Positions 10,608 through 58,606 of a DNA stretch of 64,000 nucleotides are shown here, piece by piece. Origin of the DNA: Candidatus Levyibacteriota bacterium (GTDB lineage: Bacteria; Patescibacteriota; Microgenomatia; Levybacterales; UBA12049); NCBI GenBank assembly GCA_043807135.1, contig JAZDGF010000003.1:72621-136620 (forward strand). Reading direction: 5' to 3'. The stretch's first letter is position 1, and the number at the start of each line of letters is the position of its first letter. A program made the position numbers and the translations under genes. The notes beneath the pieces are model-generated. The model ran no database searches. It saw only the letters and a list, made by a program, of their open reading frames with translations, and was not told the DNA's origin.

Positions 10608-12716
10608 CTATTCAACGCGTCCAGTAAAAGTAGACTTTGCAAGCATTTGTGAAACAATATTTTGTGGAACTTCTTCATAATGAGAAGGTTCCATATAATA
10701 ACTTGCTCTACCTTGTGACATAGAACGAAGTATTGTTGCATAACCTGATAATTCTGCCAGTGGTACTGTTGCTAAAATTATCGTTGCTTTTCCTCTTTCT
10801 TCAGTTCCCATAATTTGTGCTCTTTTTGAAGAAAGATCTCCAATAATATCTCCCATAAATTCACCTGGAGTTGTAACCTCAACCTTCATAATTGGTTCTA
10901 CAAGAGAAAGCTCTGCTTTTCTACAAGCTGTTTGAAGGGCCTGGCTTGCAGCAATCTTAAAAGCAACATCAGATGAATCAACATCATGAAAAGATCCATC
11001 ATAAACAGTTACACTCATATCAACTATTGGGTAACCAAGTAAAATTCCGTTCTCCATTGTTTCTTTAACGCCTTTTTCAATAGAAGTGATAAACTCAGCA
11101 GGAATTGCTCCTCCTTTAATTGCATTAACAAATTCATATCCTTCCCCTCTTGTTTTTGGCTCAACTCTAAGAAAACAGTGTCCATATTGTCCGCGTCCTC
11201 CGGATTGTCTTATATACTTTCCTTCTCCTTCTGCCGTGTTTTTAATAGTTTCTTTGTATGCAACTTGAGGAGCACCAACATTAGCCATAACATTAAACTC
11301 TCTTTTCATTCGATCAACCATAATTTCAAGCTGTAATTCTCCCATTCCTGAAATAATAGTTTGCCCTGTTTCATGGTTTGTTTTAATACTAAAAGTTGGG
11401 TCTTCTTCAGATAATCTTTTTAAAGCAAAACCGAGCTTTTCCTGATCTACTTTTGTTTTTGGCTCAATTGCCAAAGATATAACCGGCTCCGGGAAGGTAA
11501 TTTGTTCAAGAACAATAGGACTTTTTTCTTCGCAAAGTGTATCCCCTGTTCCCGTATCTTTAAGACCAACTAAGGCAACAATTTCCCCTGCATATGCTTC
11601 CTTAACTTCTTCTCTGTGATTTGCATGCATTAAAAGAATTCTTCCTATTCTTTCCCGCTTGTTTTTATTTGTGTTATAAATATATGAACCTGCTGCAGCT
11701 TTTCCAGAATAGACTCTAAAGTAGGTTAATTTTCCAACGTGAGGATCAATCTGAATCTTAAAAGCAAGCCCTGCAAAAGGTTCTTCAAAATCAGGCTTTC
11801 TTTCTTCTTCTTTTTCTGTTTTTGGATTAATCCCTTTAACTGCTCCAACATCCAAAGGCGATGGAAGATAGTCAATTACCGCATCAAGTAACGGTTGAAC
11901 TCCTTTGTTTCTTAAAGATGAACCTGCATAAATAGGAACCAGCTTATATGCAATAACCGCTCTTCTAAGTCCTGCTTTAAGTTCTTCTACAGATAATTCT
12001 TCGCCGTTTAAGTATTTTTCCATAAGAGCGTCATCATTTTCTGCTATTTTTTCAATTAACTTGTGTCTATATTCTTCAACTTGTTCTTTTAATTCTTCTG
12101 GAATTTCATCTGAAACTTCAAACTTTGCACCTAGTTGATCAGATCCCCAAATAAATGCTTTTTTAGTTAACAGATCAACTGTTCCTATAAAGCTTGATTC
12201 TACGCCGATTGGAAGCACCATAATTGCCGGATTTGCACCAAGCCTATTTTCAATAGATCTTATTGTTGCTAAAAAGTCCGCACCAAGTTTATCCATTTTG
12301 TTTACAAAGCAAATTCTTGGAACATTGTATTTATCTGCTTGTCTCCAGACTGTTTCAGACTGAGACTGAACACCTTCTTCAGCATCTAAAACTGTAATGC
12401 CTCCGTCTAATACACGCAAAGATCTTTCAACCTCTGCTGTAAAATCAACGTGTCCGGGAGTATCAATAATATTTATCCTGTGATCCTTCCAAAAAGCGGT
12501 AGTTGCAGCAGAAACAATGGTAATACCACGCTCTTTTTCCTGAACCATCCAGTCCATTTGTGTATTTCCTTCATCAATATCTCCAATCTTATACGTTCTT
12601 CCCGTATAAAAAAGAATACGCTCGGTTGTCGTGGTTTTACCCGCGTCAATATGCGCAATAATTCCAATGTTCCTAATTTTATCTAGTGTATAATCTTTTT
12701 TTGTTGGTTCTACCAT
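10608..12716 (-). CDS. fusA: Elongation factor G
   Basis: The 702-aa protein carries [20 protein letters not shown] and NKMD G-motifs, and EF-G domains IV and V. Confidence 0.97.
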
Positions 12717-26224: not shown

Positions 26225-26939
26225 ATATTATAAAAAGTCTTCTCTAAATTTTAAAAAAATATCTAAGCTCATAAGTCTTCTTATGATAGTTGTTGGTGGT
26301 TTTATTATAATTTATATATTTTTCCCGTTAATTTCCTGGCAAATATATTTTGCTAATGCTTTTACCAATCCCGAACTTACAACTCCCATTCCGAAAGCAA
26401 CAGTTATAAATAGTTCAACTATTGCAAGCTTAATTACTCAAGCATCAAATGTTTTTACTCAAGCTGATTACACAAATGCTGAGACTTGGTTTCCAAACAT
26501 TAAGTTTCAAAAACAACACCAAGATATTCAAACCTATGCTTTAAGTATTCAAAAATTAAAAATTGAAAATGCTGTTGTTTCAACAATTGATACTGATTTG
26601 TCAGCTCACCTTGTAAATTACGGAGGGACCGCAATCCCACCGCAAAAAGGAGCAGCAGTGGTTTTTGGACACTCAACTCTTCCCCAATGGTTTAATCCAA
26701 AAGACTACAAAACAATTTTTGCGACTCTTCATGAATTACGAGTCGGAGATGAAATAAAAGTAAATGTTTCAAATCTTACTTTTATTTATAAGGTTTATAA
26801 TATTTCCGTTGTGGAGTCATCGGATGTTTCTATGTTTGAACAAAGATATGACGACTCATATCTTACTCTTGTTACCTGTACTCCTCCTGGAACAATCTGG
26901 AAAAGACTTATAATAAGAGCAAGGCTTGATAAGGTTTAA
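26217..26939 (+). CDS. Sortase-family transpeptidase
   Basis: The 240-aa protein has an N-terminal TM anchor, a catalytic His in VVFGHS, an LTLVTC active-site Cys motif and a downstream Arg. It overlaps the upstream gene by 8 nt. Confidence 0.8.
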   Translation: MAKYYKKSSLNFKKISKLISLLMIVVGGFIIIYIFFPLISWQIYFANAFTNPELTTPIPKATVINSSTIASLITQASNVFTQADYTNAETWFPNIKFQKQHQDIQTYALSIQKLKIENAVVSTIDTDLSAHLVNYGGTAIPPQKGAAVVFGHSTLPQWFNPKDYKTIFATLHELRVGDEIKVNVSNLTFIYKVYNISVVESSDVSMFEQRYDDSYLTLVTCTPPGTIWKRLIIRARLDKV

Positions 26940-35933: not shown

Positions 35934-36923
35934 TTAATTATTTTTTGCTCTGTAAAAGCTTCCTTTTGTTTTTCCTGACTTTTCAACTAAATTTTGATTC
36001 GTAAGTTTTTTTAAATCATAACGAAGCGTTCGTTCAGGTACTTTTAAAAAACGTCTTTTTATACTATCAAATGAAATCGCTGGGTGTTCTTTTATAATAT
36101 TAAGAATTTCTTCTTGTCTTGGAGGCAAGAATATATCTTGCTTTTTAGTTATCTCACTTTCAATTAGTTTTTTAGTTTTTTCAGTTTGCTCATAAAAAGC
36201 TTTAAGCATAAAATAAAGGTATTCTTCAGGTTCTTTTAAACCAATATCTAAATAGTAATAATAATCACTTTTGTGTTCATCTAGGTATTCCTCAAAAGGA
36301 ATATTAACTTCAAAGTTCCAATTTTTTTCTTTAAGAATGGCAAATACTAATAATCTTCCAACTCTTCCATTTCCATCAATAAAAGGATGAATTTTTTCAA
36401 ATATAAAATGCCCCATAAAAGCGCTTATTATTGGAAACTTTTCTTTATTAAAATTTATGTATTTTAAAAGTTTGTTTAATAATAACGGTACTTCTTGTGG
36501 AGGTGGACTTAAATAAATGGCAATTCCCGCGCTATTAAAAATAGCTCCCATTTCTTTTCTAAACTTACCTTGCACCGTGAATAAATCATTCATCACAAGT
36601 GAATGCAGATCTAAAATATCCTTCTCGGAAATTTCTTGCCCTTCTTTAATATTCTTATTTATAAAATCTACTGCTTTTAAGATATTAAAAACCTCAATTT
36701 TTTTTTGCTCTTCGGTTTGCTCCATTCCTATCTCTTCTAAGGTAAGAGGATTTCCCTCAATACGAGCTGAAAAAAGAGAACTCTTTAAAATGCTTACTCT
36801 TTGAATCTTTTCTTTTACGAGGATTGGAATTTTTATTAAAGAAAAATATTGCCTATTTGCTTCAATTTTTGATATAAGTTCTAATATTTCTGGCGTAATC
36901 TTGTATTTTGGATGTATTTGCAC
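35934..36923 (-). CDS. Fic-family protein (class II: N-terminal inhibitory SxxxEGN motif) with a C-terminal winged-helix domain; GTG start
   Basis: The Fic motif HPFIDGNGRVGRLL is present, the inhibitory SARIEGN lies upstream, and the C-terminus has a wHTH. The first in-frame start is GTG at 36923. Confidence 0.85.
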   Translation of the reverse strand: MQIHPKYKITPEILELISKIEANRQYFSLIKIPILVKEKIQRVSILKSSLFSARIEGNPLTLEEIGMEQTEEQKKIEVFNILKAVDFINKNIKEGQEISEKDILDLHSLVMNDLFTVQGKFRKEMGAIFNSAGIAIYLSPPPQEVPLLLNKLLKYINFNKEKFPIISAFMGHFIFEKIHPFIDGNGRVGRLLVFAILKEKNWNFEVNIPFEEYLDEHKSDYYYYLDIGLKEPEEYLYFMLKAFYEQTEKTKKLIESEITKKQDIFLPPRQEEILNIIKEHPAISFDSIKRRFLKVPERTLRYDLKKLTNQNLVEKSGKTKGSFYRAKNN

Positions 36924-47284: not shown

Positions 47285-49666
47285 TTAATTAATATTTACA
47301 ATAAGTTCGTTTTCCTTACCTACTGAAAGAGAAACTTTATTTCCTCTGTTTATTTCTCCTGATAAAATCTTTTTTGCAATATTATCTTCTATGCCATTTT
47401 GAATAAAACGTTTTAATGGTCTTGCTCCAAATTGCTCGTCAAATCCTTCGCTTGAAACTTTTTTAACAATATTTTCATCAAAACTAAGATTAACGTCTTT
47501 TTCGGCAATTCTTCTTACCAAATCTTCTAAAAGCATTTTTGAAATTAACATAACCTGTTCTAATCCTAATGGTTTAAATACAATTGTGTCATCAAATCTG
47601 TTTATAAGTTCTGGTTTAAATATTCCGTTTATCTGCAAAAACTCAAATAATCTTTCTTTAAATGCCTTATCTAAAACAATTGATTTTTTAACTTCTTCAC
47701 GAATGAACTCAGAGGCTGCATTTGAAGTTGCAATAATAATTGTATTTGCAAAAGAGACAGTTTTTCCTTTATTGTCAGTTAATCTTCCATCATCTAAAAC
47801 CTGAAGAAATAAATCGAGAATTCTTGGATGTGCTTTTTCAAATTCATCAAGCAAAACCAGAGAATATGGATTATCATAAACTTTATCCGTTAATTCTCCT
47901 TTTTCAGATCCTTCTCCAGGAAGAGCACCAAGAAGTCTTTTACCACTATCTTCCTGTGAGTACTCACTCATATCAAGTCTTATCATCCGTTCACTTGATC
48001 CATAATAACTTTCTGCTAAGGCTTTTGCAGTTTCTGTTTTCCCAACTCCGGTAGGACCCATGAATAAAAAGGAAATTGGCCTTCTTTGATCTGTCAGACC
48101 TGATCTAAGCCTTCTCATTGCTTCTGAAATTGCCACAACTGCCTCATCTTGATCAATAACTCTTTTATGAATTTGTTCCTCCAGATGTAGAAGCAATTGC
48201 TTTTCTTTTTCTTTTGGAATGCCTATCGCACTTTTTATCTTTCTTTCTAAGAAAGAGATAATATCTTCTTCTTCGAGTATATTTTTACCGTTTGCTAATG
48301 CAAAAGTTGAAGCATCTTCTAAGAGAACAATTGCAGAGCCAGGAAGAACCAAATTTCTATTGTATTTATCTGCATAATTTAAAGAGGCAAGAAGTCCTCT
48401 GTAGCTTATTTGAATATTCTTGCTTTTTTCCACATACCAAGCATTTCTAAAAAGCATCATAAGAGCAGTATTTTTATCAGGCACATCAAGCCTTATTGTT
48501 TGTAAGGCACCCATTAGCTCATGCCTTTGTTCAATTTGCTTTTTAAAAGCAACTGGAGTTGTAGTTGTAATTAATCTGATTACTCCTTTTTCAATATATG
48601 GGATGAGGGCAGAAGATAAATCTAACTTGTATGAAGAATTACCTAATATATTTTCAAAATCCTTAACTAAAATAATGATATCCCCTGCATGAGCAAGTTC
48701 CACAACCATTAATCCAAGTCTTTCTTCAAGCTCTCCTTGACTTTCTGCTCCTGCTAAAAAAGAATCTACCATTAATTGAAAAATTCTTTGGTGATAAAGA
48801 TTTCCTTTTAGTTTTCCAGAATAACTATCAAGAGCTAACTTTTGAATTAAAGAATCCTTGCCACTTCCCGGCTCACCAATAATAAGCACGCTTTTTTTCT
48901 CCATAAGTCCTTCTAGGAGCATTTTATATTCTTCATCTCTTCCAATTATTTCAGGGCTTCTTCTTAAGATTTCTGAAGTTAAATCAACCATATATTTTTT
49001 AATTTCAATTGTCCATCCGTAAACCCATGGTTCACCAACTCCCTCTCCCCAAAACTCCACTCTATTGTGTTTTGTTTTTTCAAGCTTATCAAAGCTCATT
49101 CTTGCCCAAATTAAAATTCTTAATAAATCATCTTCCTTAAGTTTATTTTTAAAAAGTAGTTTTGTTTTATCCTCTGTGTTTAAAAAGTAAGCTGCAAAAA
49201 CATCAACTTCTGTTACAAAATTTCCGTTTATTTTTTTTACCAAGTACATTGCTGTTTGCATAAGCTTTTCTTTGAAAACACTTTCTTTTACTAAATCCTC
49301 TTTTTTAATATCCATTTTAGTTAACATAAATTTCCCAATTTTTTGTTTTTTTAGTTTTTCTAAGATTTCACTTTCATGATCAAAACAAAGAACAATTGCT
49401 TCAAGAGTAAAGGAATTAAAAATATCTTCCTTATTTTCCAAAACTTTTACACTTGGAAACTTTCGATAGATTTTTCTCTTAAAGAAAATTTCAATAATTA
49501 AGAATAGGCAAAGGAAAAATAACGGAAATTTAATGTTGACTAGTTTTTGAGGAATAATTAAGAACTGATTAACTACTGCAATAATTAGAAGAGCAAATAT
49601 TAAAAACCTTATTAATTCTATAATTCTTGAGGAGTAAAAATAATAAAGCTTTGCGTAATTTTTCAT
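47285..49666 (-). CDS. Membrane-anchored Hsp100/Clp-family ATPase with two AAA+ modules; D1 degenerate, D2 canonical
   Basis: The 793-aa protein has two N-terminal TM helices, Clp_N-like repeats, D1 (GEPGSGKDS; ILVKDFENIL) and D2 (GPTGVGKTE; LVLLDEFEKAH; ATSN). Confidence 0.75.
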   Translation of the reverse strand: MKNYAKLYYFYSSRIIELIRFLIFALLIIAVVNQFLIIPQKLVNIKFPLFFLCLFLIIEIFFKRKIYRKFPSVKVLENKEDIFNSFTLEAIVLCFDHESEILEKLKKQKIGKFMLTKMDIKKEDLVKESVFKEKLMQTAMYLVKKINGNFVTEVDVFAAYFLNTEDKTKLLFKNKLKEDDLLRILIWARMSFDKLEKTKHNRVEFWGEGVGEPWVYGWTIEIKKYMVDLTSEILRRSPEIIGRDEEYKMLLEGLMEKKSVLIIGEPGSGKDSLIQKLALDSYSGKLKGNLYHQRIFQLMVDSFLAGAESQGELEERLGLMVVELAHAGDIIILVKDFENILGNSSYKLDLSSALIPYIEKGVIRLITTTTPVAFKKQIEQRHELMGALQTIRLDVPDKNTALMMLFRNAWYVEKSKNIQISYRGLLASLNYADKYNRNLVLPGSAIVLLEDASTFALANGKNILEEEDIISFLERKIKSAIGIPKEKEKQLLLHLEEQIHKRVIDQDEAVVAISEAMRRLRSGLTDQRRPISFLFMGPTGVGKTETAKALAESYYGSSERMIRLDMSEYSQEDSGKRLLGALPGEGSEKGELTDKVYDNPYSLVLLDEFEKAHPRILDLFLQVLDDGRLTDNKGKTVSFANTIIIATSNAASEFIREEVKKSIVLDKAFKERLFEFLQINGIFKPELINRFDDTIVFKPLGLEQVMLISKMLLEDLVRRIAEKDVNLSFDENIVKKVSSEGFDEQFGARPLKRFIQNGIEDNIAKKILSGEINRGNKVSLSVGKENELIVNIN

Positions 49667-49667
49667 A

Positions 49668-49997
49668 TTAAATAAAAATTAAATAAAATGTCAGTATTGG
49701 AAAAGCAATAAATAAAAGAATAAAGGAAAATTCAATAAGTAAAACTATTGCCATTAAAAATAAATCCGCGAGAATTACAAAGGTTTTAATAAAAATTCCC
49801 ATACCTATTGAAAAACCAACAAGTCCCTCTCTGTACTCATTTTTCCAAGGCTTAAAGTACGTTTTTACTAAAAGTGGAAGAGAAATAATACCCATTATTG
49901 TCTTATTTAGAGATATAAAAAAGGAAATAAGTAAAACAGGAGCTTCTATAAACCAAAAGCGTAATAGAATTAATGGCAGACTTAAATAAAAGAGCAT
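49668..49997 (-). CDS. Small polytopic membrane protein, coupled to the downstream Clp-like gene by a 1-nt gap
   Basis: The 109-aa protein has three to four hydrophobic helices. Confidence 0.45.
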   Translation of the reverse strand: MLFYLSLPLILLRFWFIEAPVLLISFFISLNKTIMGIISLPLLVKTYFKPWKNEYREGLVGFSIGMGIFIKTFVILADLFLMAIVLLIEFSFILLFIAFPILTFYLIFI

Positions 49998-50037
49998 AGT
50001 TTAAGTTTAGAAAGTTTTACGACTAAATGCAATTAAT

Positions 50038-51981
50038 TTAATTTATAGGTGTACATTTGAGGCTACAAATTTGAATACCATCTTCTCTTGAAGTACATGC
50101 AGGGTCAAAAACACAATTAGCCGTTTTATAAATGGTTGTAGTTGTGGTAGAAGTTCCTAAACCTCCTTCTCCAGGCAAACTACAATCAGAAGGACAATTT
50201 ACATTTGTTTCTCCTAATTCACAGGTTCCATTTCCACAAGTATTATTTCCTCCAGGCAAACTACAATCAGAAGGACAATTTACATTTGTTTCTCCTAATT
50301 CACAGGTTCCATTTCCACAAGTATTATCTCCTCCTCCGGGGTTTGCTCCTGGCGGAATTATAAAGCTAAAAATAAGACCAAAATTACTAGTATTAATATT
50401 AATAGGGTTCGAAGGGAAAACAATTGTCCCTGCTTTTGCGGAAATATTATAGCTACCAATAGGAAGAGAAGTAAATGCGTATTCACCGTTACTATTAGTT
50501 GTGATAGTGCCACTGTATGGACCCGACAAAGTAATTGTTGCTCCTTGAATACCTTGTTCTCCTGGATCAAAAGTATTATTACTGTTTTGATCTATAAAAA
50601 CTGCACCCGAAATAAAGGGCCTATTTTGAAGAGAAGGATCGCCTCCTCCTGGATTAGTCCCTCCCGTTGTAGTTGTTGTTGTCTGTGTTGTTGTTCCTCC
50701 ACAATATTTTGGCAAAACATTAGTTCTAATCCAATATTTTTCTACAGAGTCAAATATTGGTTGTGTTGCACAACCTACTGCACTCATCATAGTGTTTGCA
50801 TTACCACTTGCTACTAGGTTTGGGTTAGCAGGTTTTGGACAAGTTAATGGAGAAGAAGCATAATTATTTATATTACTACAGCCCTTGTATGATCCTTGCC
50901 CGCCTGCTGTTTGCCAAAAACTTTCTCCGCTTGGATTATTCGTACAATTACTTTTTATTCCCCCTTGTATTTGTCCATAGCCTAAGTTTGAAGAGACATA
51001 GCGATCATACAAGAGGCCTATTGCATGACCTAAAAATTCATGCGCTGCAACTACTCTGGTGGTATTAGTAATATTTCCTCCATTATTTGGGAAAACTGCA
51101 ACGTTTCCCCCAATTCCGCTTGTTACTCCAAGCGCACCCCCTGAAATTACCATATCAACTAAAACTATTACTTTTGAAGCATCCGGATAAGTAGATTTTG
51201 CTATTTGCATAATTCTAGTGCTACCCACACAATTAAGGCTTGCTTTACACCCTAAAGATTCTGAATTGTCAACTACTCTAAAATCAAAAATGCTTTGTGT
51301 GTTGTACGGATCAACTGAAAGATAAATTTGCTTAAAAGCATCTACATCTTGATGAAACTTATTAAAATCCGTATACCCATCACTTACAAATGCAACAACT
51401 AAAGGACTACATCCTTGTGTCTGGGCATGGGCTTTGGGTAAATTAAAAAAATTTAGAGAATTTTTTTTTACAGGGAGCTCAATTTTCAAGATATTCTCAC
51501 TATTCTCTTTAATAAGAATCTTTGTTCCTTTGTCTAAGTATGGAACATAAATAACCGTATCTAATTTATCAGGAATTTCAGGCTGAGAACTTCCCGAAGC
51601 AGGAGCATTTATAGACATATCATATAAAGGATCTGTTGTAATGTTTATTTTTGTTCTATAAAGCACTTCATCACCTGAAGAATACATCACTAACTCGTAT
51701 GGCGAAAAATCTGCACTTCTATTATCTTGTGATATTTTTTTATCAATAAGGGTTACTTCTTTTAAAACAAGCTCTCTTTTGTCCGTATTAAAAGTAAGTA
51801 TTACCTCCCATGTCTTATAATTTGGTTTTTGCTCTGTAGTTACTGTCTTTTTAGACATAAATAAAGCGATTGGAATTGAGAATAAAACAATTAGAATAAT
51901 TACAACAAAAATGATTTTTTTTGGAATTGATATCTTTTGAAAAAATGAATTAATTTTACTTAAAAATCCCTCGTTATTCAT
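50038..51981 (-). CDS. Secreted multidomain protein with an N-terminal anchor, an HEFLGH (HExxxH) zincin-like segment, a Cna-B/SdrD-B-type fold and two Cys-rich 27-aa repeats
   Basis: The 647-aa protein contains AAHEFLGHAIGLLYDRY, then SGAVFIDQNSNNTFDPGEQGIQGATITLSGPYSGTITTNSNGEYAF, then two copies of NTCGNGTCELGETNVNCPSDCSLPG. Confidence 0.55.
   Translation of the reverse strand: MNNEGFLSKINSFFQKISIPKKIIFVVIILIVLFSIPIALFMSKKTVTTEQKPNYKTWEVILTFNTDKRELVLKEVTLIDKKISQDNRSADFSPYELVMYSSGDEVLYRTKINITTDPLYDMSINAPASGSSQPEIPDKLDTVIYVPYLDKGTKILIKENSENILKIELPVKKNSLNFFNLPKAHAQTQGCSPLVVAFVSDGYTDFNKFHQDVDAFKQIYLSVDPYNTQSIFDFRVVDNSESLGCKASLNCVGSTRIMQIAKSTYPDASKVIVLVDMVISGGALGVTSGIGGNVAVFPNNGGNITNTTRVVAAHEFLGHAIGLLYDRYVSSNLGYGQIQGGIKSNCTNNPSGESFWQTAGGQGSYKGCSNINNYASSPLTCPKPANPNLVASGNANTMMSAVGCATQPIFDSVEKYWIRTNVLPKYCGGTTTQTTTTTTGGTNPGGGDPSLQNRPFISGAVFIDQNSNNTFDPGEQGIQGATITLSGPYSGTITTNSNGEYAFTSLPIGSYNISAKAGTIVFPSNPININTSNFGLIFSFIIPPGANPGGGDNTCGNGTCELGETNVNCPSDCSLPGGNNTCGNGTCELGETNVNCPSDCSLPGEGGLGTSTTTTTIYKTANCVFDPACTSREDGIQICSLKCTPIN
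50171..50332. repeat. Near-perfect 81-bp tandem direct repeat, two copies, inside the secreted-protein gene
   Basis: ccaggcaaactacaatcagaaggacaatttacatttgtttctcctaattcacaggttccatttccacaagtattat occurs twice with period 81. It is also visible as a repeated peptide in the opposite-strand ORF 50132-50452. Confidence 0.85.
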
Positions 51982-54626
51982 ACGGAATTATTATTTAACG
52001 GATTGGCATTAACAGCCATTGTTTGCCCCTCTCCTATAGTAGGAGTTGGTGGAATTGAGTCAGGTGGAACCGGAGGCACCTGATTTTGATCCTGAATAGC
52101 ACCGTTTATCGGATTCTGAACTGACTGTCCTGGCTGTTGAGCTTGTTGTTTTTGCACCTGCTCTCCTGGTTTTTGAATCGCCTTTGTAAAAACAAATTCT
52201 TCTTTTTGAGAATTGTAATCAATAAGAATTTTATCTCCTTGAACAAAAGTTTTTTTGATAAGGAAAAGAGCTATTGGATTCTCGATTGCCGTTTGAATTA
52301 ATCTTCTTAAAGGCCTTGCACCATATACAGGATCGTAGCCTTCTTCAGCAAGCCTTGCCAAAGCTGCTTCGCTTGCTTCAAGATCAACTCCTTGCATAAG
52401 TAATAATTTCTTAGTTGCATTTATTCCAAGCCTTGCCACTTGAGTCATATTTTTCTGACTTAAGGGTTCGAAAACAATTACTCCGTCAAACCTATTTAAA
52501 AGCTCAGGCCTAAAGAATTTTCTAAGCTCCCCCATTAAAATTTTTGTTAATTCTGCAAATTTCTCTTTTGCTTCTTCCAGTATTTTTTCAGGCTGTAGGA
52601 TTTGTGCATTTTTATCTTCTTTCGTAACCTTATCTTGCAATTGCTGTTGAATTAAAGCGCTACCAATATTTGAAGTTGCAATTATAATGGTGTTTTTAAA
52701 GGAAATCGTATTTCCTTTATTGTCGGTTAATCTTCCATCTTCTAATAACTGAAGCAAAATATTAAATACATCGGGATGAGCTTTTTCTACTTCATCTAAA
52801 AGAACTATTGAGTATGGTTTCGCTCTTACGGCTTCTGTTAATTGACCACCTTCTTCATAGCCAACATATCCAGGAGGAGCTCCAATAAGTTTTGCTACTT
52901 CGTGTTTTTCCATATATTCACTCATATCAAGCCTGATCATTGACTGTTCTTTTCCAAAAAGAACTTGGGCAAGAGTTTTAGCAAGTTCTGTTTTTCCAAC
53001 ACCAGTAGGACCAAGGAAAATAAAGGAAGCAATTGGTCTATTAACACTTGAGAGTCCGATTCTTCCTCTTCTTACAGCTTCCGCAACTAAACTTACTGCG
53101 TTTTCTTGATTAATCAGTCTTTTATGAATTGTTTCTTCTAGACGAAGCAGTTTTTCACTTTCGTTTTCGGTTAATTTAGTAATTGGTATTCCTGTCCAGT
53201 TGCTTACTACTTTTTCAATATCTTCTCTTTTTATTTCATTTCCTTGCCTTTTCCCGGCATTAAGCTCAAGTCTTACTTGTGCTGATGCTTCATCTAAAAG
53301 ATCTACTGCCTTATCAGGAAGATAACGCTCTCCAATATATCTTTTAGAAAGTTTTACAGATGCCTCTATTGCCTCAGGGGTAGCTTTTACTTTATGGAAT
53401 TCTTCATATCTTGGGACCAAAATCTTAATCATTTCAATTGCTGCTTTTTCGTCCGGTTCTTCAACTAAAACTGGCTGAAATCTTCTTTCAAAAGCTTTAT
53501 CTTTTTCAAAATACCTTCTGTATTCAACTGTAGTTGTGGTTCCAATTATTTGCAGTTGCCCACGTGCAAGGAATGGTTTTATGATATTTGATGCATCTAA
53601 AGCTCCTTCTGTATCTCCTGCTCCAATTATGCTGTGAATTTCATCAATAAATAAAATTACATTTCCTGCTGCTTGAGTTTCTTTAATTACTCCCCTTAAT
53701 CTTTCTTCAAATTCTCCTCTATGCGATGCACCTGCAACCAAAGATGAAAGATCAAGTTGAATAATTTTTTTTGCTTCAAGATCCTTGGGCGCTTTTCCAC
53801 CAACAATATCTTGAGCAAGACCTTCAACAATTGCTGTTTTACCAACTCCTGCCTCTCCGATAATAATAGGGTTATTTTTTGTTCTCCTTAAAAGAATGTG
53901 AGTAAGTCTTTCTACTTCTCTATCTCTTCCGGTTATAGGATCAAGATCTCCATTTTTAGCTTGCTCTGTAAGATTAATTCCGAATTGTTCAAGCGTTGAT
54001 TTTTTACCATATACAAAAGTAGAAGACTTAGATAATTGTTTTTCTATTTTTTCTTTATCAAGCCCTTGTGATTTCAAATAATCAGATACTGCCATGTTTT
54101 GAGAAAATAAAGAGACAAGTAAATCTTCCGGGCTTATAAATTCAACGCCTCTTGATTTAATAGTTGAATATGCCTGCTCAAAAACATGCTTGGAATTTTC
54201 AGAAAGCATAGGCTGTCCTTCAAAAGTTCCTGCTTGTTCTTTTGCCTGCAACTCCTTTGAAAGCTTGGCAACATCTACTGAAAATTTTGAAAGTAGGGCA
54301 AAAACTTCAGAGTCAAATAAAAGACCTAATAAAATTTGCTCAGGCTCTATTAATCCTTGTTTAATTCTTTTTGTTTCCTGCTGTGCTTGATTTAAAATTT
54401 GAGTGGTTCTAGAATCTAGATGAGAAAGAATTGATAAATCCTGTCTTTGTCCCGGCTGCATAGAAGAACTAACTATACCGTCCTGCTGAGGATTTGAAGG
54501 AGAAGAAGGAATGGGCGGTTGTTGCATGGGTGACTGCCCTAACGGTGGCATAACCGGCTGCTGAGATTGATCTTGCTTAATTTCGTTTTCTTCTTTTTTC
54601 TTTTGACTAAATAAATTTCCTAACAT
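51978..54626 (-). CDS. clpC: ClpC/ClpB-type Hsp100 ATPase with Gln/Pro-rich N- and C-terminal extensions
   Basis: The 882-aa protein has Clp_N repeats, D1 (GEAGVGKTA; ILFIDEIH), D2 (GPTGVGKTE; IVLLDEVEKAH) and no obvious ClpP-binding IGF loop. Confidence 0.85.
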   Translation of the reverse strand: MLGNLFSQKKKEENEIKQDQSQQPVMPPLGQSPMQQPPIPSSPSNPQQDGIVSSSMQPGQRQDLSILSHLDSRTTQILNQAQQETKRIKQGLIEPEQILLGLLFDSEVFALLSKFSVDVAKLSKELQAKEQAGTFEGQPMLSENSKHVFEQAYSTIKSRGVEFISPEDLLVSLFSQNMAVSDYLKSQGLDKEKIEKQLSKSSTFVYGKKSTLEQFGINLTEQAKNGDLDPITGRDREVERLTHILLRRTKNNPIIIGEAGVGKTAIVEGLAQDIVGGKAPKDLEAKKIIQLDLSSLVAGASHRGEFEERLRGVIKETQAAGNVILFIDEIHSIIGAGDTEGALDASNIIKPFLARGQLQIIGTTTTVEYRRYFEKDKAFERRFQPVLVEEPDEKAAIEMIKILVPRYEEFHKVKATPEAIEASVKLSKRYIGERYLPDKAVDLLDEASAQVRLELNAGKRQGNEIKREDIEKVVSNWTGIPITKLTENESEKLLRLEETIHKRLINQENAVSLVAEAVRRGRIGLSSVNRPIASFIFLGPTGVGKTELAKTLAQVLFGKEQSMIRLDMSEYMEKHEVAKLIGAPPGYVGYEEGGQLTEAVRAKPYSIVLLDEVEKAHPDVFNILLQLLEDGRLTDNKGNTISFKNTIIIATSNIGSALIQQQLQDKVTKEDKNAQILQPEKILEEAKEKFAELTKILMGELRKFFRPELLNRFDGVIVFEPLSQKNMTQVARLGINATKKLLLMQGVDLEASEAALARLAEEGYDPVYGARPLRRLIQTAIENPIALFLIKKTFVQGDKILIDYNSQKEEFVFTKAIQKPGEQVQKQQAQQPGQSVQNPINGAIQDQNQVPPVPPDSIPPTPTIGEGQTMAVNANPLNNNSV

Positions 54627-54631
54627 ATTTT

Positions 54632-55990
54632 TTATTGTGAACAGGTAAATGGATTATCTTTATTTGTTTTTACCATTCCGCCCCATTCAACTGCCGTAAA
54701 TCCTTTTCTTTGAGGCGTTACAATTACCGGTTCTTTTATATTAACTTTTTTATCTAATGCTTCAAAATATAATCTTACTCTAATAAACACATCAGGATTT
54801 GGATTAAAGAATATCGGCTCAATTTGATCAATATCATTTTTTGTCATAACTCCTACAAAATAGTATGGAGAAATAGGTAAAACTTTTTCCCAATATTCTT
54901 TAAATTCTTTACTTTCTTTTTCATTTAATCCCAATTTTGGCAAAAGTTTATCAAATAAAGACCCTAATTCATCTCTTTTGACTACATATCCTTTTTGAGG
55001 TTTTTTTACCAAATTATCAGGAATCTTTGATTCATAGTATAAATACGGATAAGTATTGTTTTCTAATGTAATTAGTCCTTTTTTATCTGCAAGGACTGTC
55101 CAACCTTCTTCTGGATAAGAAGGAATGGTTAAAGTTAATATTCCTTTTGTCTTTACTTTCACATTTACTTCCTCTTCTTTTTCAGGATACAGATAAATTG
55201 CTGGTTTACAGGCAGGAGTCCACCAAGAATACGATCTTGTTGTTACAAAAGTTACTTTCTTAAGCTGAAGAGATTTTTCTCCCTGAGCAGGAGGGGGAAT
55301 TGGCGTATCTACCCAAAGATACTCATAGATATTATCTCCATTTTTTAAATAAATAGTTCCCAGATGATAAAATAATGAATAATTAGTTTGTCCTACCTTT
55401 AATTTTCCAATTTCTTTTACTTCGCTAAGATTATTAAGAGAGCTAAAAACTGTAACATTCCCATTATGAACATAGCCAGGGGCAACCGATGGCTCTGTTA
55501 AGCCAATTATGTCTGTTTTATTAAATGAACTTGGAGGAAATGTATTCTCATCTCCTTCAACAATAGTAAGTTTTCCTCCTGTTGATTTGCAGTTTTTAAT
55601 ATAATCGGGGATTGCTGCTCCATCTTTTATATAAAGATCAAAAACATATGGAGATTCTAGAGTTGTATTTTTCAATTGGAAAACAATTATCGGATCTACT
55701 TTTTGACCAAAATAATTACTTGTCAGTGCGTAAAGATTATTTCCAAGCGAATTTAATTCTTTAAATTTATACTCTTCAATAATTTCTGCATCTTTTTTTA
55801 TTAAGTTATACTGAACTCCGTTATATGACACTGTTTGGGAAGTACTTGGTGGATCAAAATCAACACAAGAAGCTGTTGGAGAAACAGGTGTATAATTTTG
55901 ATTTTTATTTGGACTTATTGAAAACAAACCCGCCAAGGCTACCGCAGCAATTACTACAACCCCTAAAGTAAATATCACAAGCTTGTTCAT
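54632..55990 (-). CDS. Secreted/anchored hypothetical protein
   Basis: The 452-aa protein has an N-terminal signal anchor and no recognisable motif. Confidence 0.5.
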   Translation of the reverse strand: MNKLVIFTLGVVVIAAVALAGLFSISPNKNQNYTPVSPTASCVDFDPPSTSQTVSYNGVQYNLIKKDAEIIEEYKFKELNSLGNNLYALTSNYFGQKVDPIIVFQLKNTTLESPYVFDLYIKDGAAIPDYIKNCKSTGGKLTIVEGDENTFPPSSFNKTDIIGLTEPSVAPGYVHNGNVTVFSSLNNLSEVKEIGKLKVGQTNYSLFYHLGTIYLKNGDNIYEYLWVDTPIPPPAQGEKSLQLKKVTFVTTRSYSWWTPACKPAIYLYPEKEEEVNVKVKTKGILTLTIPSYPEEGWTVLADKKGLITLENNTYPYLYYESKIPDNLVKKPQKGYVVKRDELGSLFDKLLPKLGLNEKESKEFKEYWEKVLPISPYYFVGVMTKNDIDQIEPIFFNPNPDVFIRVRLYFEALDKKVNIKEPVIVTPQRKGFTAVEWGGMVKTNKDNPFTCSQ

Positions 55991-56032
55991 AAATTTATTG
56001 TAACACTATTTTTAAAATCAAGAAAAATCTTT

Positions 56033-58309
56033 TTATTTAATCTTTTCATCTATCTTTGCTTCCTCTGCCATTTCTTTTGGTTTTTCTTCTTTCTTAGTCC
56101 TTGCAGAAAGCATTGTGTCCTCTTCTTCTTGTTTACTTTTAAGTTTTCCTACTACAGACTTTGCTGCTTCAAGTTTTGCCTTAAGATAAGCAACTACTTC
56201 AGTCTGAGAAAATCCTCCAATCAGAAGGAAAGGAAGAATATTTCCAACTGCTTCCATTCCCTTATCAACATTTTGTGTATCTTGTGAAGAAAGAAGATTA
56301 ACTGTATCTGTAATCTTTCCAATATCTGCGTTTATCCATTCTGCTCTCTCCTGTTGTTTTGGAGGCTCAAGTGTTTCATAATTTTCCTCCCACATCTTTC
56401 TAACTGCTTCATAATCATCAAGGCTTACTTGCTGCACTCTGTTTGTAACAGGGAATGGCCCTGAAGAAACTTTAGATATATCCGTAACTCCTGCCTCCTC
56501 AAGCACCATTGCAGCAATTGAATTCCCTTTTTCTTTTGCTTCTTTAAGTCTTTCCTTAAGTGCTTCATCTGCTCCTTCTTTATCCATTGCAGAAAGAATA
56601 GAGACTGCAAGAGGATTACCATTTTTTTGCGCTTTTATTAATTGATCTTTTATTGTTGTTAATTTTTGTTTTTCTGCAATGTTTGCAGTATTTGGACTTG
56701 CAATCTTTTGAAGTGCCGTATTAAGACGTGCTGTTTCTTTTTGAGACTGAACAACCATTTCCGGCTTATTAATAGTGCTTGCAGCAGTAAGAATAGAACT
56801 TGCAACTCTATTTCCTTTTTGACCTTCCTGAACAAGTTTATCTTTTATCGATGTATATTTCTCTCTTTCTATTGTTGAGCTTAATTTCTTTGGATTAGCA
56901 ATTCTTTCTAATGATTCGTGATATTTTGCAAGTTCTGTGTGCTTACTCATGCTTGAACTTAAAGAAGCAGTTTCAAATTTTGCAATATCTCTCATTGTTG
57001 GAATAGATAAATTAGTAAGTTTCGTAATCTCTAACTGCATTGATCTTATGTTTGAGATGTCCATTGGAATACTTTGCGTCTTTATGTTTGGTATTGAAAT
57101 CTTAGCAGCAAAAGGAATAGTTTTTGCCATACCTGTTGGCTGATGAGATGAAAGAGGCGAAGGAGGCGGAGCCTGGGGAGAACTTTTTGATTTTGACATA
57201 AACGAAGAACCTGATTCTACCAATTGTTTTACAAAAGAATTCTCACTAAAGGATAACGTTTGGATATAATCAAGAAAAATCTGCAAAAGTAAAAAAGGAA
57301 GAATTATAATAACCCAAAGCATAAGAAGTGCAACAACGTAAAGTGCAAAAGACTCCTTATTATTTACACTGTTACTTAAAGACAAAACCTGTCCTGGGCC
57401 TCCTAAGAGAATATTAATTGCTGTTGGATAAACAACTGTATTTGAAAAGGCGAATTGTAAAGGAATACCAGTTCGCCAAACATAAACAAGTCCTGATAAA
57501 AAGATAGCAAAAATAGGAGCATACAAAAGCCAGCGGAAAAATTCTCCAATCCAAATTTTTCCAGTATTTCTAATTGGGGAATATAGCAAAAGAAGCGGAA
57601 ATACGGGAGAAATGATTATGAAAAACCACAGGATAATTTTTCTTATTAAAAGAATTCCTGCCATTACATAATAAGTTGCTGCAGTAAGTTTTATTAAAAG
57701 AAGGGAAATAAAAGCAGATTCATCAAAAGGAGCACCAAATCTTCTATAACCTGTAAAATCCTGATAATTAAATCCTATGTTTAAAAGGTTTTTTTGGGAA
57801 ATAAAACCGGTTCCTTCAGGATTTTTTAAGAAAAAGCCCTGAATTACATCTATAATCTGATACAAAAACTGGATAAGCGCAAAAGAAAATGTAACTAAAA
57901 GAATGATGATAATAAATCTTGGAATAAAACGCATAACCGTAATGCTTCTTCCGCGGGTTACGATCATAATAAATGCTGTTATTAAAACTGCTAAAGCAAA
58001 GAAAGCGTAAACAATATTTCTAATTTGTGACCAGAAATTAGCAAGCGGATTCTGAGTACCTGCAGTAACAAATGACCAGCTATAATTTTGAAGTGTCCAA
58101 TCTAAAAATTGTCCTGATCTTGCTCCCATTTTTCCAACAAAAGTAACATCTGAATCATTAACCCAGGTTCCATCGCCAGGTTGACCTGTTGCAGATGTAG
58201 GAGAAGTTGTTGAAGGACTACTCGGATCAATTTGAGCAATAGCTGGAGCAACAAATAACAAACTAACTATTGTTATTAAAAGAAATAAAAAGGGCAGGAA
58301 TTTTTTCAT
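56033..58309 (-). CDS. VirB6/TrbL-like polytopic membrane protein with a long repeat-containing hydrophilic C-terminal domain
   Basis: The 758-aa protein has a signal peptide, an exposed segment of about 100 aa, 6 or more TM helices, and a roughly 400-aa C-terminus with three repeats (KGNRVASSILTAAS / NGNPLAVSILSAMD / KGNSIAAMVLEEAG). Confidence 0.4.
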   Translation of the reverse strand: MKKFLPFLFLLITIVSLLFVAPAIAQIDPSSPSTTSPTSATGQPGDGTWVNDSDVTFVGKMGARSGQFLDWTLQNYSWSFVTAGTQNPLANFWSQIRNIVYAFFALAVLITAFIMIVTRGRSITVMRFIPRFIIIILLVTFSFALIQFLYQIIDVIQGFFLKNPEGTGFISQKNLLNIGFNYQDFTGYRRFGAPFDESAFISLLLIKLTAATYYVMAGILLIRKIILWFFIIISPVFPLLLLYSPIRNTGKIWIGEFFRWLLYAPIFAIFLSGLVYVWRTGIPLQFAFSNTVVYPTAINILLGGPGQVLSLSNSVNNKESFALYVVALLMLWVIIILPFLLLQIFLDYIQTLSFSENSFVKQLVESGSSFMSKSKSSPQAPPPSPLSSHQPTGMAKTIPFAAKISIPNIKTQSIPMDISNIRSMQLEITKLTNLSIPTMRDIAKFETASLSSSMSKHTELAKYHESLERIANPKKLSSTIEREKYTSIKDKLVQEGQKGNRVASSILTAASTINKPEMVVQSQKETARLNTALQKIASPNTANIAEKQKLTTIKDQLIKAQKNGNPLAVSILSAMDKEGADEALKERLKEAKEKGNSIAAMVLEEAGVTDISKVSSGPFPVTNRVQQVSLDDYEAVRKMWEENYETLEPPKQQERAEWINADIGKITDTVNLLSSQDTQNVDKGMEAVGNILPFLLIGGFSQTEVVAYLKAKLEAAKSVVGKLKSKQEEEDTMLSARTKKEEKPKEMAEEAKIDEKIK

Positions 58310-58321
58310 AATTTCTTGTCT

Positions 58322-58606
58322 TTATTTAAAACCAGGTATATGCAATATGTCAATAGCAATTATTTGAACAAAAACATAGCCAAAAATTGCTAAAAGCAAA
58401 CCTATAATAGCATAGAAAATATAGCTTTTACCCGTATTTAGTTTATCAGGATTTCCTTGAGAAATAAGAATCATGTATCCTCCGTAGATAATAAATAAAA
58501 CGGAAACTCCGCCAATTAAACCTAAACCAATAGCATAAAATTTTGTAACAAAACCTATCGGATCATTAGGAATACATCCCAATTCCGTAGGTGTACAATC
58601 AGGCAT
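58322..58606 (-). CDS. T4SS-pilin-like (TrbC/VirB2-like) small membrane protein
   Basis: The 94-aa protein has an N-terminal Cys pair (CTPTELGC), two hydrophobic helices separated by a GNPDKLNTGKS loop, and sits directly upstream of the VirB6-like gene. Confidence 0.4.
   Translation of the reverse strand: MPDCTPTELGCIPNDPIGFVTKFYAIGLGLIGGVSVLFIIYGGYMILISQGNPDKLNTGKSYIFYAIIGLLLAIFGYVFVQIIAIDILHIPGFK

What the first reader, a model, noticed from the sequence alone, without database searches (positions are those of the whole stretch)
56033..58606. VirB2-like pilin and VirB6-like polytopic protein pair with an internally repetitive C-terminal domain
A 94-aa protein with two hydrophobic helices around a Gly-rich loop fits the TrbC/VirB2/T4SS-pilin pattern. 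It sits 12 nt upstream of a 758-aa protein with 6 or more TM helices and a hydrophilic tail of about 400 aa. That tail carries three roughly 45-aa-spaced repeats of [KN]GNx[VLI]Ax2[IV]L. The calls rest on pattern recognition only.
Basis: inference. Interest (0 to 1): 0.5.

Follow-up and report, generated by a model that had tools for sequence, protein, structure and literature searches.

The report
Diverged VirB2–VirB6 pair in Levybacteria
Two adjacent genes in an ultra-small "candidate phyla radiation" bacterium encode a pilin-like subunit and a very diverged, long-tailed version of VirB6, the membrane platform on which type IV secretion pili are built. This kind of machine is already known in these bacteria, but profile-based surveys had mostly missed this version of the platform.

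Summary
The window is core chromosome of a Candidatus Levyibacteriota MAG.

- **The 94-aa protein** belongs to Pfam T4SS_pilin (PF18895). Its own score is 22.9 bits against a cut-off of 26.6, but 26 of 26 relatives match.
- **Its architecture** is an "extended VirB6": signal peptide, VirB6-like membrane domain, proline-rich linker, helical repeats and a conserved C-terminal domain. The repeats are two units of about 65 aa plus one truncated unit, not units spaced about 45 aa apart.
- **Pairing:** the pilin gene lies upstream of the VirB6-like gene in 84 of 84 Levybacteria loci. The pair always sits between the dnaK operon and a ClpC-like gene and is never near other T4SS genes.
- **T4SS link:** in other Microgenomatia, homologues lie within 10 kb of VirB4-, coupling-protein-, TraC-like and SLT_3 genes.

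Most likely function: the pilin and assembly platform of the Patescibacteria-type T4SS. Whether this genome has VirB4 could not be tested; a published table lists 24 of 44 Levybacteria without it. Verdict: new variant of a known kind, of moderate interest.

The parts
58322..58606 (-). VirB2-like pilin gene (94 aa, PF18895 family). The protein has an N-terminal beta-hairpin with Cys4 and Cys11, two long hydrophobic helices, a short Lys-containing loop and a conserved C-terminal ILHIPGF motif. It has no signal peptide.
   Evidence: A pilin gene lies upstream of the VirB6-like gene on the same strand in 84 of 84 Levybacteria loci.
58310..58321 (-). 12-nt spacer between the pilin stop codon and the VirB6-like start codon. 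This spacing suggests translational or operonic coupling.
56033..58309 (-). Extended VirB6-like gene (758 aa).
58235..58309 (-). Signal-peptide-like N-terminus (residues 1-25, ...VAPAIA|Q).
   Evidence: A hydrophobic h-region followed by an A-x-A/FAQ-type site is conserved in 20 homologues.
57230..58192 (-). VirB6/TrbL-like membrane domain (residues 40-360). It contains a conserved extracytoplasmic N-segment, W49-D52-VTF-GK-R64, and five to six hydrophobic helices.
57056..57193 (-). Proline-rich linker predicted to be disordered (residues 373-418).
   Evidence: pLDDT is below 50.
56780..56947 (-). Helical repeat unit 1 (residues about 455-510), ending in KGNRVASSIL.
56582..56749 (-). Helical repeat unit 2 (residues about 521-576), ending in NGNPLAVSIL.
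   Evidence: self-score 59 against unit 1 at an offset of 65 aa.
56480..56572 (-). Truncated repeat unit 3 (residues about 580-610), ending in KGNSIAAMVL.
   Evidence: self-scores 47 and 38 against units 1 and 2.
56075..56476 (-). Conserved C-terminal domain (residues 612-745). Its signature is FPV-NRVQ-VS-DDYE, W-ENY, ILPFLLIGGF and YLKAKLEAAK, followed by an acidic tail. It is a hallmark of the family.
   Evidence: 46 columns are invariant in 10 homologues. It is kept at 40-49% identity in all 7 distant loci and in 74 of 80 metagenome loci. It has no PDB or Pfam relative.
54632..55990 (-). Gene for a 452-aa membrane-anchored protein of unknown fold (p452), probably an accessory component. 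It lies 42 nt downstream of the VirB6-like gene.
   Evidence: It has no Pfam, NCBIfam or PDB match. It is present in 16 of 84 Levybacteria loci. Homologues also sit directly downstream of the VirB6-like gene in distant Microgenomatia loci L090, L092 and L093.
51978..54626 (-). ClpC-like double AAA+ ATPase gene (882 aa), the conserved downstream neighbour. Membership in the system is not established.
   Evidence: Pfam assignments are. It follows the pair in 77 of 77 Levybacteria loci that extend far enough, and in L089, L091, L092 and L093. It appears in only 2 of 80 other Microgenomatia loci.

Best explanation
The two genes encode the pilin and the membrane assembly platform of the chromosomal, Patescibacteria-type type IV secretion (T4SS) apparatus of a Levybacteria (class Microgenomatia) cell.

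Inferred mechanism:
1. The 94-aa protein inserts into the cytoplasmic membrane as a helical hairpin. Its acidic N-tail and its C-terminus face outwards, and its Lys-containing loop faces inwards. This is the topology of mature VirB2.
2. The 758-aa protein is exported with a cleavable signal peptide. By analogy with R388 TrwI/VirB6, it forms an oligomeric base, a pentamer in TrwI. That base recruits pilin subunits from the lipid bilayer and serves as the site where they stack into a pilus or conduit.
3. The long tail is probably cytoplasmic. Its variable helical repeats and its conserved C-terminal domain would dock cytoplasmic partners. The expected motor is a VirB4-type ATPase encoded elsewhere on the chromosome.
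4. The product would be used for contact or exchange with a host cell rather than for conjugation. This role has been shown genetically only for Saccharibacteria.

What is shown here: homology of both proteins, the domain architecture, the strict gene pairing, and the link between the family and T4SS genes in other lineages. What is inferred: oligomeric state, pilus formation, tail topology, the motor and the biological role.
For: **Pilin.** PF18895 hits in 26 of 26 relatives, and the window protein scores E 9.4e-5. NCBIfam's pilin-like conjugal transfer family matches at 6.6e-5. The model is a helix-loop-helix with pLDDT 81.7.

**Pairing.** A pilin gene lies upstream of the platform gene on the same strand in 84 of 84 loci from 80 species-level genomes. 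The gap is 12 nt in this window.

**T4SS link of the family.**
- L091 has a VirB4-type ATPase (P-loop_TraG, 61 bits) and an M23 hydrolase about 9 kb upstream.
- L089 and L093 have a coupling-protein homologue (TrwB_AAD_bind at 32.5 bits and TraG-D_C), a TraC-like gene directly upstream and a T4SS_pilin downstream.
- L088 has an SLT_3 lysozyme.
- A VirB4 homologue lies within 10 kb in 3 further metagenome loci, and SLT_3-like genes in 11.

**Topology.** Across 110 homologues, loop 1, R223-K224 and loop 4 carry net charges of +3.9, +2 and +2. The N-segment, loop 2 and loop 5 carry -1.7, -2.3 and about 0. This fits N-out, five spans, C-in. It is the topology I recall for A. tumefaciens VirB6.

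**Literature.** VirB2-like pilins and VirB6 are recognised parts of Patescibacteria T4SSs. The same survey notes that VirB6 is 'scarce' in Microgenomatia, 'suggesting extreme sequence divergence' (PMC12102498). The R388 structure proposes VirB6 as the pilin recruitment and assembly site (PMC9259494).
Against: - The window protein itself has no Pfam or NCBIfam hit. More distant family members also lack a TrbL hit.
- A sequence-profile search of the PDB did not find VirB6 or VirB2.
- No VirB4, coupling protein, TraC-like, SLT_3 or M23 homologue lies in the 64-kb window or within 10 kb of the pair in any of the 84 Levybacteria loci.
- Table S1 of PMC12102498 lists VirB4 as detected in only 20 of the 44 Levybacteria genomes I read. 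Three of the five pair-carrying MAGs I could match to it are listed as 'No'. These are draft MAGs, so absence is not proven.
- The pilin lacks the leader peptide typical of VirB2.
Confidence: 0.7

Rival explanations
1. The pair is a VirB4-independent module. In Levybacteria the pilin, the extended VirB6-like protein and sometimes p452 would work with the adjacent Clp/Hsp100-type AAA+ ATPase. This is either ClpC-like 882 or the membrane-anchored ClpB-like 793 with its small partner p109. The ATPase would dock on the conserved C-terminal domain and extract or unfold pilins or cargo, much as ClpV serves type VI secretion.
For: - A ClpC-like gene follows the pair, or p452, with short same-strand gaps in 77 of 77 informative Levybacteria loci.
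- It also does so in four loci from other Microgenomatia whose other flanks are completely different: L089, L091, L092 and L093.
- ClpC-like 882 has intact Walker motifs but no IGF/VGF-type ClpP-docking tripeptide where ClpC proteins carry it.
- VirB4 is reported absent from 24 of 44 Levybacteria assemblies.
- The tail is probably cytoplasmic.
Against: - In 80 further Microgenomatia loci the ClpC-like gene is next to the VirB6-like gene in only 2, and both duplicate loci already counted. Many of these loci are 22 kb long and have no Clp gene. The linkage is therefore lineage-restricted.
- dnaK-clp clustering is ordinary heat-shock gene order.
- No precedent was found in the searched literature.
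- Absence of VirB4 from MAGs may reflect incompleteness or divergence.
Confidence: 0.1
2. The proteins are true VirB2 and VirB6 homologues, but they have been co-opted for a role that is neither secretion nor pilus formation. Candidates are membrane or cell-envelope biogenesis, or a stress-related membrane complex.
For: - The pair is embedded in a housekeeping and heat-shock region: hrcA-grpE-dnaK-dnaJ upstream and clpC, nusA and infB downstream.
- In other Microgenomatia the homologue often follows yidC, jag and a Wzy_C polymerase-like gene.
- It behaves as a vertically inherited core gene, with hits in 143 species genomes.
- No relaxase or other mobile-element gene is nearby.
Against: - Strict retention of the pilin partner.
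- Recurrence of T4SS genes (VirB4, T4CP, TraC-like, SLT_3) near homologues.
- The yidC/dnaA region is exactly where Microgenomatia keep virB4 according to PMC12102498.
- Patescibacteria T4SSs in general are chromosomal and lack a relaxase, so this context is not unusual for them.
Confidence: 0.12
3. The resemblance is spurious. The 758-aa protein would be an unrelated polytopic membrane protein (one source calls a homologue 'cytochrome b561'). The 94-aa protein would be a generic two-helix membrane peptide.
For: - The window proteins have no above-threshold Pfam hit of their own.
- Foldseek E-values are weak, at 0.03-0.17.
- Hydrophobic helices give noisy matches.
Against: - Consistent TrbL hits over the same region in 11 of 20 relatives.
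- PF18895 hits in 26 of 26 pilin relatives.
- Independent genomic association with T4SS ATPases in other lineages.
Confidence: 0.03

Closest known systems
TrwI/VirB6 of plasmid R388 (PDB 7O3V, 8RT9, 8RTD); Pfam PF04610 TrbL/VirB6
   Different: Sequence identity is only 12-16%. The window protein itself falls below detection by Pfam. It has a cleavable-looking signal peptide with a conserved extracytoplasmic N-segment and a 413-aa tail that TrwI lacks. The host is a monoderm. It is not encoded in a virB operon.
'Extended VirB6' proteins: F-plasmid TraG, Rickettsiales VirB6 paralogues, Gram-positive ConG, TcpH and PrgH (review PMC12857230 plus my own knowledge)
   Same: The architecture matches: five or more hydrophobic helices plus a large C-proximal hydrophilic domain. 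Tail length is highly variable. Proteins carrying this membrane domain range from about 240 to 2790 aa. This recalls the giant repeat-bearing tails of Anaplasma VirB6-4.
   Different: The tail shows no detectable similarity to any of them. It has its own conserved C-terminal domain, kept across Microgenomatia, and its own G[ND]xxAxxIL helical repeats.
Patescibacteria-type T4SS (Southlakia epibionticum and TM7x; survey PMC12102498)
   Same: It is a chromosomal, relaxase-less system in a monoderm CPR bacterium that combines PF18895 VirB2-like pilins with VirB6.
   Different: In those systems the pilins usually form arrays of 2-11 genes near virB4. Here a single pilin gene is coupled to the VirB6-like gene and lies far from any other T4SS gene, between the dnaK operon and clpC. 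The survey detected few VirB6 homologues in Microgenomatia, and this family is a candidate for the missing one.
VirB2/TrbC pilins (PF04956) and the Mycoplasma ICE Mbov_0395 pilin-like protein (NF045849)
   Same: They share size, a helix-loop-helix with a short polar loop, and the predicted topology. Sequence matches are weak: NF045849 at E 6.6e-5, and PF04956 at E 0.0069 for one relative.
   Different: The window protein has no leader peptide; it starts where the mature protein starts in relatives that do carry a signal peptide. It also has a conserved N-terminal Cys-containing beta-hairpin and a conserved C-terminal ILHIPGF motif.
DotA of the Legionella Dot/Icm type IVB system (PDB 9NGY)
   Different: The match is much weaker than to TrwI. 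There is no detectable sequence similarity, and no IcmX-like partner was seen.

Membership tests
TrbL/VirB6 (Pfam PF04610; structural prototype TrwI) | Significant match to the family's sequence profile. | tested here: inconclusive
   The window protein has no hit at E <= 1. Of 20 relatives, 11 hit PF04610. One of them, P0079 at 58% identity, scores 26.7 bits, above the gathering score of 25.9. All hits cover the same helices. Ten more distant relatives have no hit.
TrbL/VirB6 (Pfam PF04610; structural prototype TrwI) | The VirB6 fold: a bundle of long hydrophobic helices, as in TrwI. | tested here: met
TrbL/VirB6 (Pfam PF04610; structural prototype TrwI) | Encoded together with VirB4 and other T4SS genes. 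| tested here: inconclusive
   This is not met in the window or in 84 Levybacteria loci within 10 kb. It is met for homologues in other Microgenomatia: VirB4-type ATPase in L091, L097, L099 and L152; T4CP-like and TraC-like genes in L089 and L093; SLT_3 in L088 and 11 metagenome loci.
TrbL/VirB6 (Pfam PF04610; structural prototype TrwI) | Oligomeric (pentameric) base that recruits VirB2 and supports pilus growth. | not testable with these tools
   No multimer prediction or experiment was available. The feature is inferred from PMC9259494.
Extended VirB6 subgroup | VirB6-like hydrophobic domain plus a large central or C-proximal hydrophilic domain. | tested here: met
   The membrane domain ends near residue 345 and a 413-aa hydrophilic tail follows. 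The definition is quoted in PMC12857230.
T4SS_pilin (Pfam PF18895) / VirB2-like pilins | Match to the family profile above Pfam's gathering score. | tested here: inconclusive
   The window protein scores 22.9 bits against a cut-off of 26.6, E 9.4e-5. All 26 aligned relatives at 67-95% identity match at E <= 0.1, with a best E of 5.4e-8. Most close homologues carry a precomputed PF18895 assignment.
T4SS_pilin (Pfam PF18895) / VirB2-like pilins | Small protein with two hydrophobic helices joined by a short polar loop. | tested here: met
   Hydropathy. The AlphaFold model has helices at 16-48 and 53-87 and pLDDT 81.7.
T4SS_pilin (Pfam PF18895) / VirB2-like pilins | N-terminal leader or signal peptide removed on maturation. 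| tested here: not met
   The ORF starts at MPDCTPTELGCIP, with only 72 nt before the divergent upstream gene. A minority of orthologues (P0192, P0205, P0225, P0237) carry a signal peptide ending just before this point. Most orthologues, like the window protein, lack it.
T4SS_pilin (Pfam PF18895) / VirB2-like pilins | Polymerises into an extracellular pilus. | not testable with these tools
Patescibacteria-clade T4SS (PMC12102498) | The genome encodes a VirB4 of the Patescibacteria clade, usually with TrsD and a VirB3/PrgI homologue. | not testable with these tools
   Only 64 kb of a 186,777-bp contig is available, and attempts to extend it failed. The paper's Table S1 lists VirB4 in 20 of the 44 Levybacteria genomes read.

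The most novel reading that the evidence does not exclude
In Levybacteria and a few other Microgenomatia lineages, the pilin, the extended VirB6-like protein, p452 and the adjacent Clp/Hsp100-type AAA+ ATPase would form a self-contained apparatus. The Clp-type unfoldase would dock on the conserved C-terminal domain of the VirB6-like protein. It would complement or replace VirB4, which a published survey did not detect in about half of Levybacteria assemblies. That would be a T4SS-derived pilus or channel driven by a non-VirB4 motor, analogous to ClpV in type VI secretion.
Probability: 0.08. Interest if true: 0.8.

Novelty: new variant of a known kind. Interest (0 to 1): 0.42.

Why it matters
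T4SS genes are the first secretion system shown to be essential for the epibiotic life of a Patescibacterium (Wang et al. 2023, as summarised in PMC12857230). Yet the 2025 survey found VirB6 'scarce' in Microgenomatia, one of the largest classes.

This locus supplies a concrete candidate for that missing component. It is a large family, with 764 representative clusters. The family is recognisable by fold and by a signature C-terminal domain, and in Levybacteria it is always paired with one pilin gene. A profile built from it would let T4SS inventories of Microgenomatia be completed.

The locus also raises three testable questions:
- How is a leaderless VirB2-like pilin inserted into the membrane?
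- What does the variable cytoplasmic tail bind?
- Do the Levybacteria that appear to lack VirB4 still use the pair?

Tried and rejected
- **Pfam and NCBIfam on the 758-aa protein itself:** nothing.
- **Sequence profiles against PDB chains:** only noise. This covered the full family, the pilin family, the C-terminal domain, and p452 as a single sequence.
- **CIRCE operator (HrcA site) with up to 3 mismatches:** none in the window. I found no sequence support for heat-shock control of the pair.
- **Promoter and terminator scan of 46-60.6 kb:** no more sites than in shuffles, so operon boundaries are not resolved.
- **Extending the window with exact-protein look-ups at both ends:** only short Logan contigs or nothing, so VirB4 could not be sought in this genome.
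- **Mobile-element origin (ICE or plasmid remnant):** rejected. GC content is uniform at about 0.29-0.37. The flanks are core genes. Gene order is the same in 80 species genomes. No relaxase, integrase or T4CP is nearby.
- **Motif count as an explanation of tail length:** rejected. The number of G[NDS]x[VLIFM]Axxx[IVLM] motifs (0-8) correlates only weakly with protein length (r = 0.38). The 1200-1320-aa variants therefore carry other insertions.
- **ClpC as a general partner of this family:** tested and weakened. Adjacency holds in Levybacteria and a few other lineages, but not in most Microgenomatia loci.
Full report
**Where the window comes from.** The window has 29-37% G+C, and nearly all genes are on the minus strand. 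The 758-aa protein is identical to a hypothetical protein of a Candidatus Levyibacteriota MAG (locus tag V1697_01600, contig of 186,777 bp).

Reading from the high-coordinate end of the window, the gene order is:
- hrcA, grpE, dnaK and dnaJ
- a divergent APH-like gene
- the 94-aa gene and the 758-aa gene
- a 452-aa gene
- a ClpC-like gene (882 aa)
- a secreted SdrD_B-domain protein
- a 109-aa membrane protein and a ClpB-like gene (793 aa)
- nusA, infB, pnp, RNase J and ftsK
- further on, rpoBC, EF-G, EF-Tu and ribosomal protein genes

It is core chromosome, not a mobile element. Every ORF of 550 aa or more has an assignment, and none is VirB4 or VirD4.

**The observation.** Both ORFs, the 12-nt spacer, the two helices of the small protein, the six hydrophobic segments, the 413-aa tail and the three motif copies are all present. 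The repeats exceed chance: self-scores of 59 and 47 against a shuffle maximum of 41. Their geometry differs from the description. There are two units of about 65 aa plus one truncated unit of 31 aa, so the motifs at residues 498, 563 and 594 are 65 and 31 aa apart. The glycines of the small protein are mostly inside helix 1, not in the loop.

**The small protein.**
- It scores just under Pfam's cut-off for PF18895 T4SS_pilin (22.9 against 26.6 bits). It also matches NCBIfam's Mbov_0395 pilin-like conjugal transfer family at E 6.6e-5.
- Every one of 26 relatives (67-95% identical) hits PF18895, and one also hits TrbC/VirB2. At family level the assignment is secure.
- The AlphaFold model (pLDDT 81.7) has a short N-terminal beta-hairpin holding Cys4 and the invariant Cys11. 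Two long helices follow.
- A few orthologues carry a classical signal peptide that ends exactly where the window protein begins. Most, like this one, have lost it.
- The acidic N-tail and the Lys-containing loop fit a topology with both termini outside, like mature VirB2. This is an inference.
- Fold search cannot add anything for such a simple fold.

**The large protein.**
- It has no Pfam or NCBIfam hit of its own.
- Of 20 relatives, 11 hit PF04610 TrbL/VirB6 over the same helices. One passes the gathering score.
- The AlphaFold model built on 110 homologues has pLDDT 85-97 in the membrane domain.
- Foldseek's five best PDB hits are all TrwI/VirB6 of R388.

I therefore accept remote homology to VirB6. 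The architecture, from N- to C-terminus, is:
- a signal peptide
- a conserved external N-segment
- the VirB6-like helices
- a disordered proline-rich linker
- helical repeats
- a strongly conserved C-terminal domain of about 135 aa, followed by an acidic tail

This is the 'extended VirB6' pattern described in PMC12857230. Charge distribution over 110 homologues fits N-out, five spans, C-in, so the tail is probably cytoplasmic. A six-span reading with an external tail is not excluded.

**Family and context.**
- The membrane domain finds 764 representative clusters with E <= 1e-3. The proteins range from about 240 to 2790 aa, so tails are hypervariable.
- In 80 species-level Levybacteria genomes plus 4 other contigs, the pilin gene lies upstream of the VirB6-like gene on the same strand. 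This holds in 84 of 84 loci, and in most the two genes are separated by only a short gap.
- The dnaK operon is upstream in 76 loci. A ClpC-like gene is downstream in all 77 loci that extend far enough.
- None of these loci, nor the window, holds a VirB4, coupling-protein, TraC-like, SLT_3 or M23 homologue.
- More distant homologues occur in Shapirobacteria, Gottesmanbacteria and other Microgenomatia. They share 36-42% identity in the membrane domain and 40-49% in the C-terminal domain.
- Some of those distant homologues lie near T4SS genes:
  - L091 has a VirB4-type ATPase and an M23 hydrolase about 9 kb upstream, in the dnaA-yidC region.
  - L089 and L093 have a coupling-protein homologue, a TraC-like gene directly upstream and a T4SS_pilin downstream.
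  - L088 has an SLT_3 lysozyme.

- In 80 further metagenome loci, VirB4 is within 10 kb in 3, SLT_3-like genes in 11 and TraC-like genes in 6.
- The dnaA-yidC region is where PMC12102498 places virB4 in Microgenomatia. The same paper notes that VirB6 is scarce in this class, 'suggesting extreme sequence divergence'. This family is a good candidate for that missing component.

**Mechanism.** The model follows the R388 structure. There, VirB6 forms a pentameric base whose first transmembrane helix is the proposed pilin recruitment site, and its upper surface is the proposed assembly site (PMC9259494). By analogy, the 758-aa protein would form the membrane platform and the 94-aa protein the subunit it polymerises. 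A VirB4-type ATPase encoded elsewhere would power the process, and the tail would dock cytoplasmic partners. All of this is inference from homology and gene pairing; none of it is shown here.

**What does not fit neatly.** A published table lists VirB4 in only 20 of the 44 Levybacteria assemblies I read. Some of those listed as 'No' are larger than 1 Mb. Three of five pair-carrying MAGs I could match are also 'No'. These are draft genomes and the detection was HMM-based, so absence is unproven. I could not test it directly.

The ClpC-like neighbour recurs next to the VirB6-like gene in four non-Levybacteria loci with otherwise different surroundings. That raised the idea of a Clp-type motor. 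The wider sample weakened it: only 2 of 80 loci showed the adjacency, and both duplicate loci already seen.

The 452-aa protein is patchy in Levybacteria (16 of 84 loci). However, homologues reappear directly downstream of the VirB6-like gene in L090, L092 and L093. It may be an accessory part of unknown fold.

**Verdict.** What is there is a leaderless PF18895 pilin and a highly diverged, tail-extended VirB6 homologue. They form a strictly coupled, vertically inherited core gene pair of Levybacteria, encoded apart from the rest of any T4SS. The kind of system is known (Patescibacteria T4SS, extended VirB6). This variant, its signature C-terminal domain and its genomic isolation appear not to have been described in the literature I could search.

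Noticed in passing
window 47285..49666 (-) and 49668..49997 (-): The 793-aa ClpB/Hsp100-like protein has two N-terminal hydrophobic segments, so it looks membrane-anchored. Its first AAA+ module is degenerate (GEPGSGKD, no Walker B DE). A 109-aa, very hydrophobic protein precedes it with a 1-nt gap. The pair recurs in most Levybacteria loci, and in those the p109 gene lies just upstream of the ClpB-like gene.
   Followed up: partly
window 51978..54626 (-): The ClpC-like 882-aa protein has both Walker A and B motifs. It has no IGF/VGF-type ClpP-docking tripeptide between 'TSNIG' and 'FRPELLNRFD', where ClpC proteins carry it. It also has Gln/Pro-rich low-complexity extensions at both ends.
   Followed up: partly
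window 47285..58606 (-): Seven consecutive same-strand genes are packed with gaps of -4 to 42 nt. They are the pilin, VirB6-like, p452, ClpC-like, SdrD_B protein, p109 and ClpB-like genes. This may be one long operon. Simple promoter and terminator scans did not resolve it.
   Followed up: partly
window 50038..51981 (-): The 647-aa secreted protein has an SdrD_B/prealbumin-like domain and an HEFLGH (HExxH-type) motif. It also has two perfect tandem copies of a Cys-rich 25-aa unit (NTCGNGTCELGETNVNCPSDCSLPG). In a relative (L001) the equivalent gene carries a Cohesin domain instead.
   Followed up: no
window 58322..58606 (-); proteins P0192, P0205, P0225, P0237: Most Levybacteria orthologues of the pilin have lost the signal peptide that a minority still carry. 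They start at the predicted mature N-terminus. The C-terminal ILHIPGF motif is nearly invariant. Whether it is a processing or cyclisation signal is unknown.
   Followed up: partly
window 23792..26224 (+) and 26217..26939 (+): An 810-aa protein with a weak Baseplate_J-like match (E 1.2e-6) overlaps the start of a sortase gene.
   Followed up: no
L089 10001..12652: In this distant homologue the conserved C-terminal domain of the VirB6-like protein is present twice (tblastn segments at 11552-11989 and 12170-12610).
   Followed up: no
PMC12102498 Table S1 (supplement 2, part 8): VirB4 is listed as detected in only 20 of 44 Levybacteria assemblies in this part of the table. Neighbouring groups such as Magasanikbacteria are almost all 'Yes'. 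Several 'No' assemblies exceed 1 Mb.
   Followed up: partly
window 35934..36923 (-): A Fic/DOC-domain protein with a C-terminal winged-helix domain sits among housekeeping RNA-processing genes.
   Followed up: no
whole window: GC skew is strongly and persistently negative (about -0.1 to -0.3), and almost all genes are on the minus strand. The exception is 22-29 kb, where both skew and gene orientation flip.
   Followed up: no
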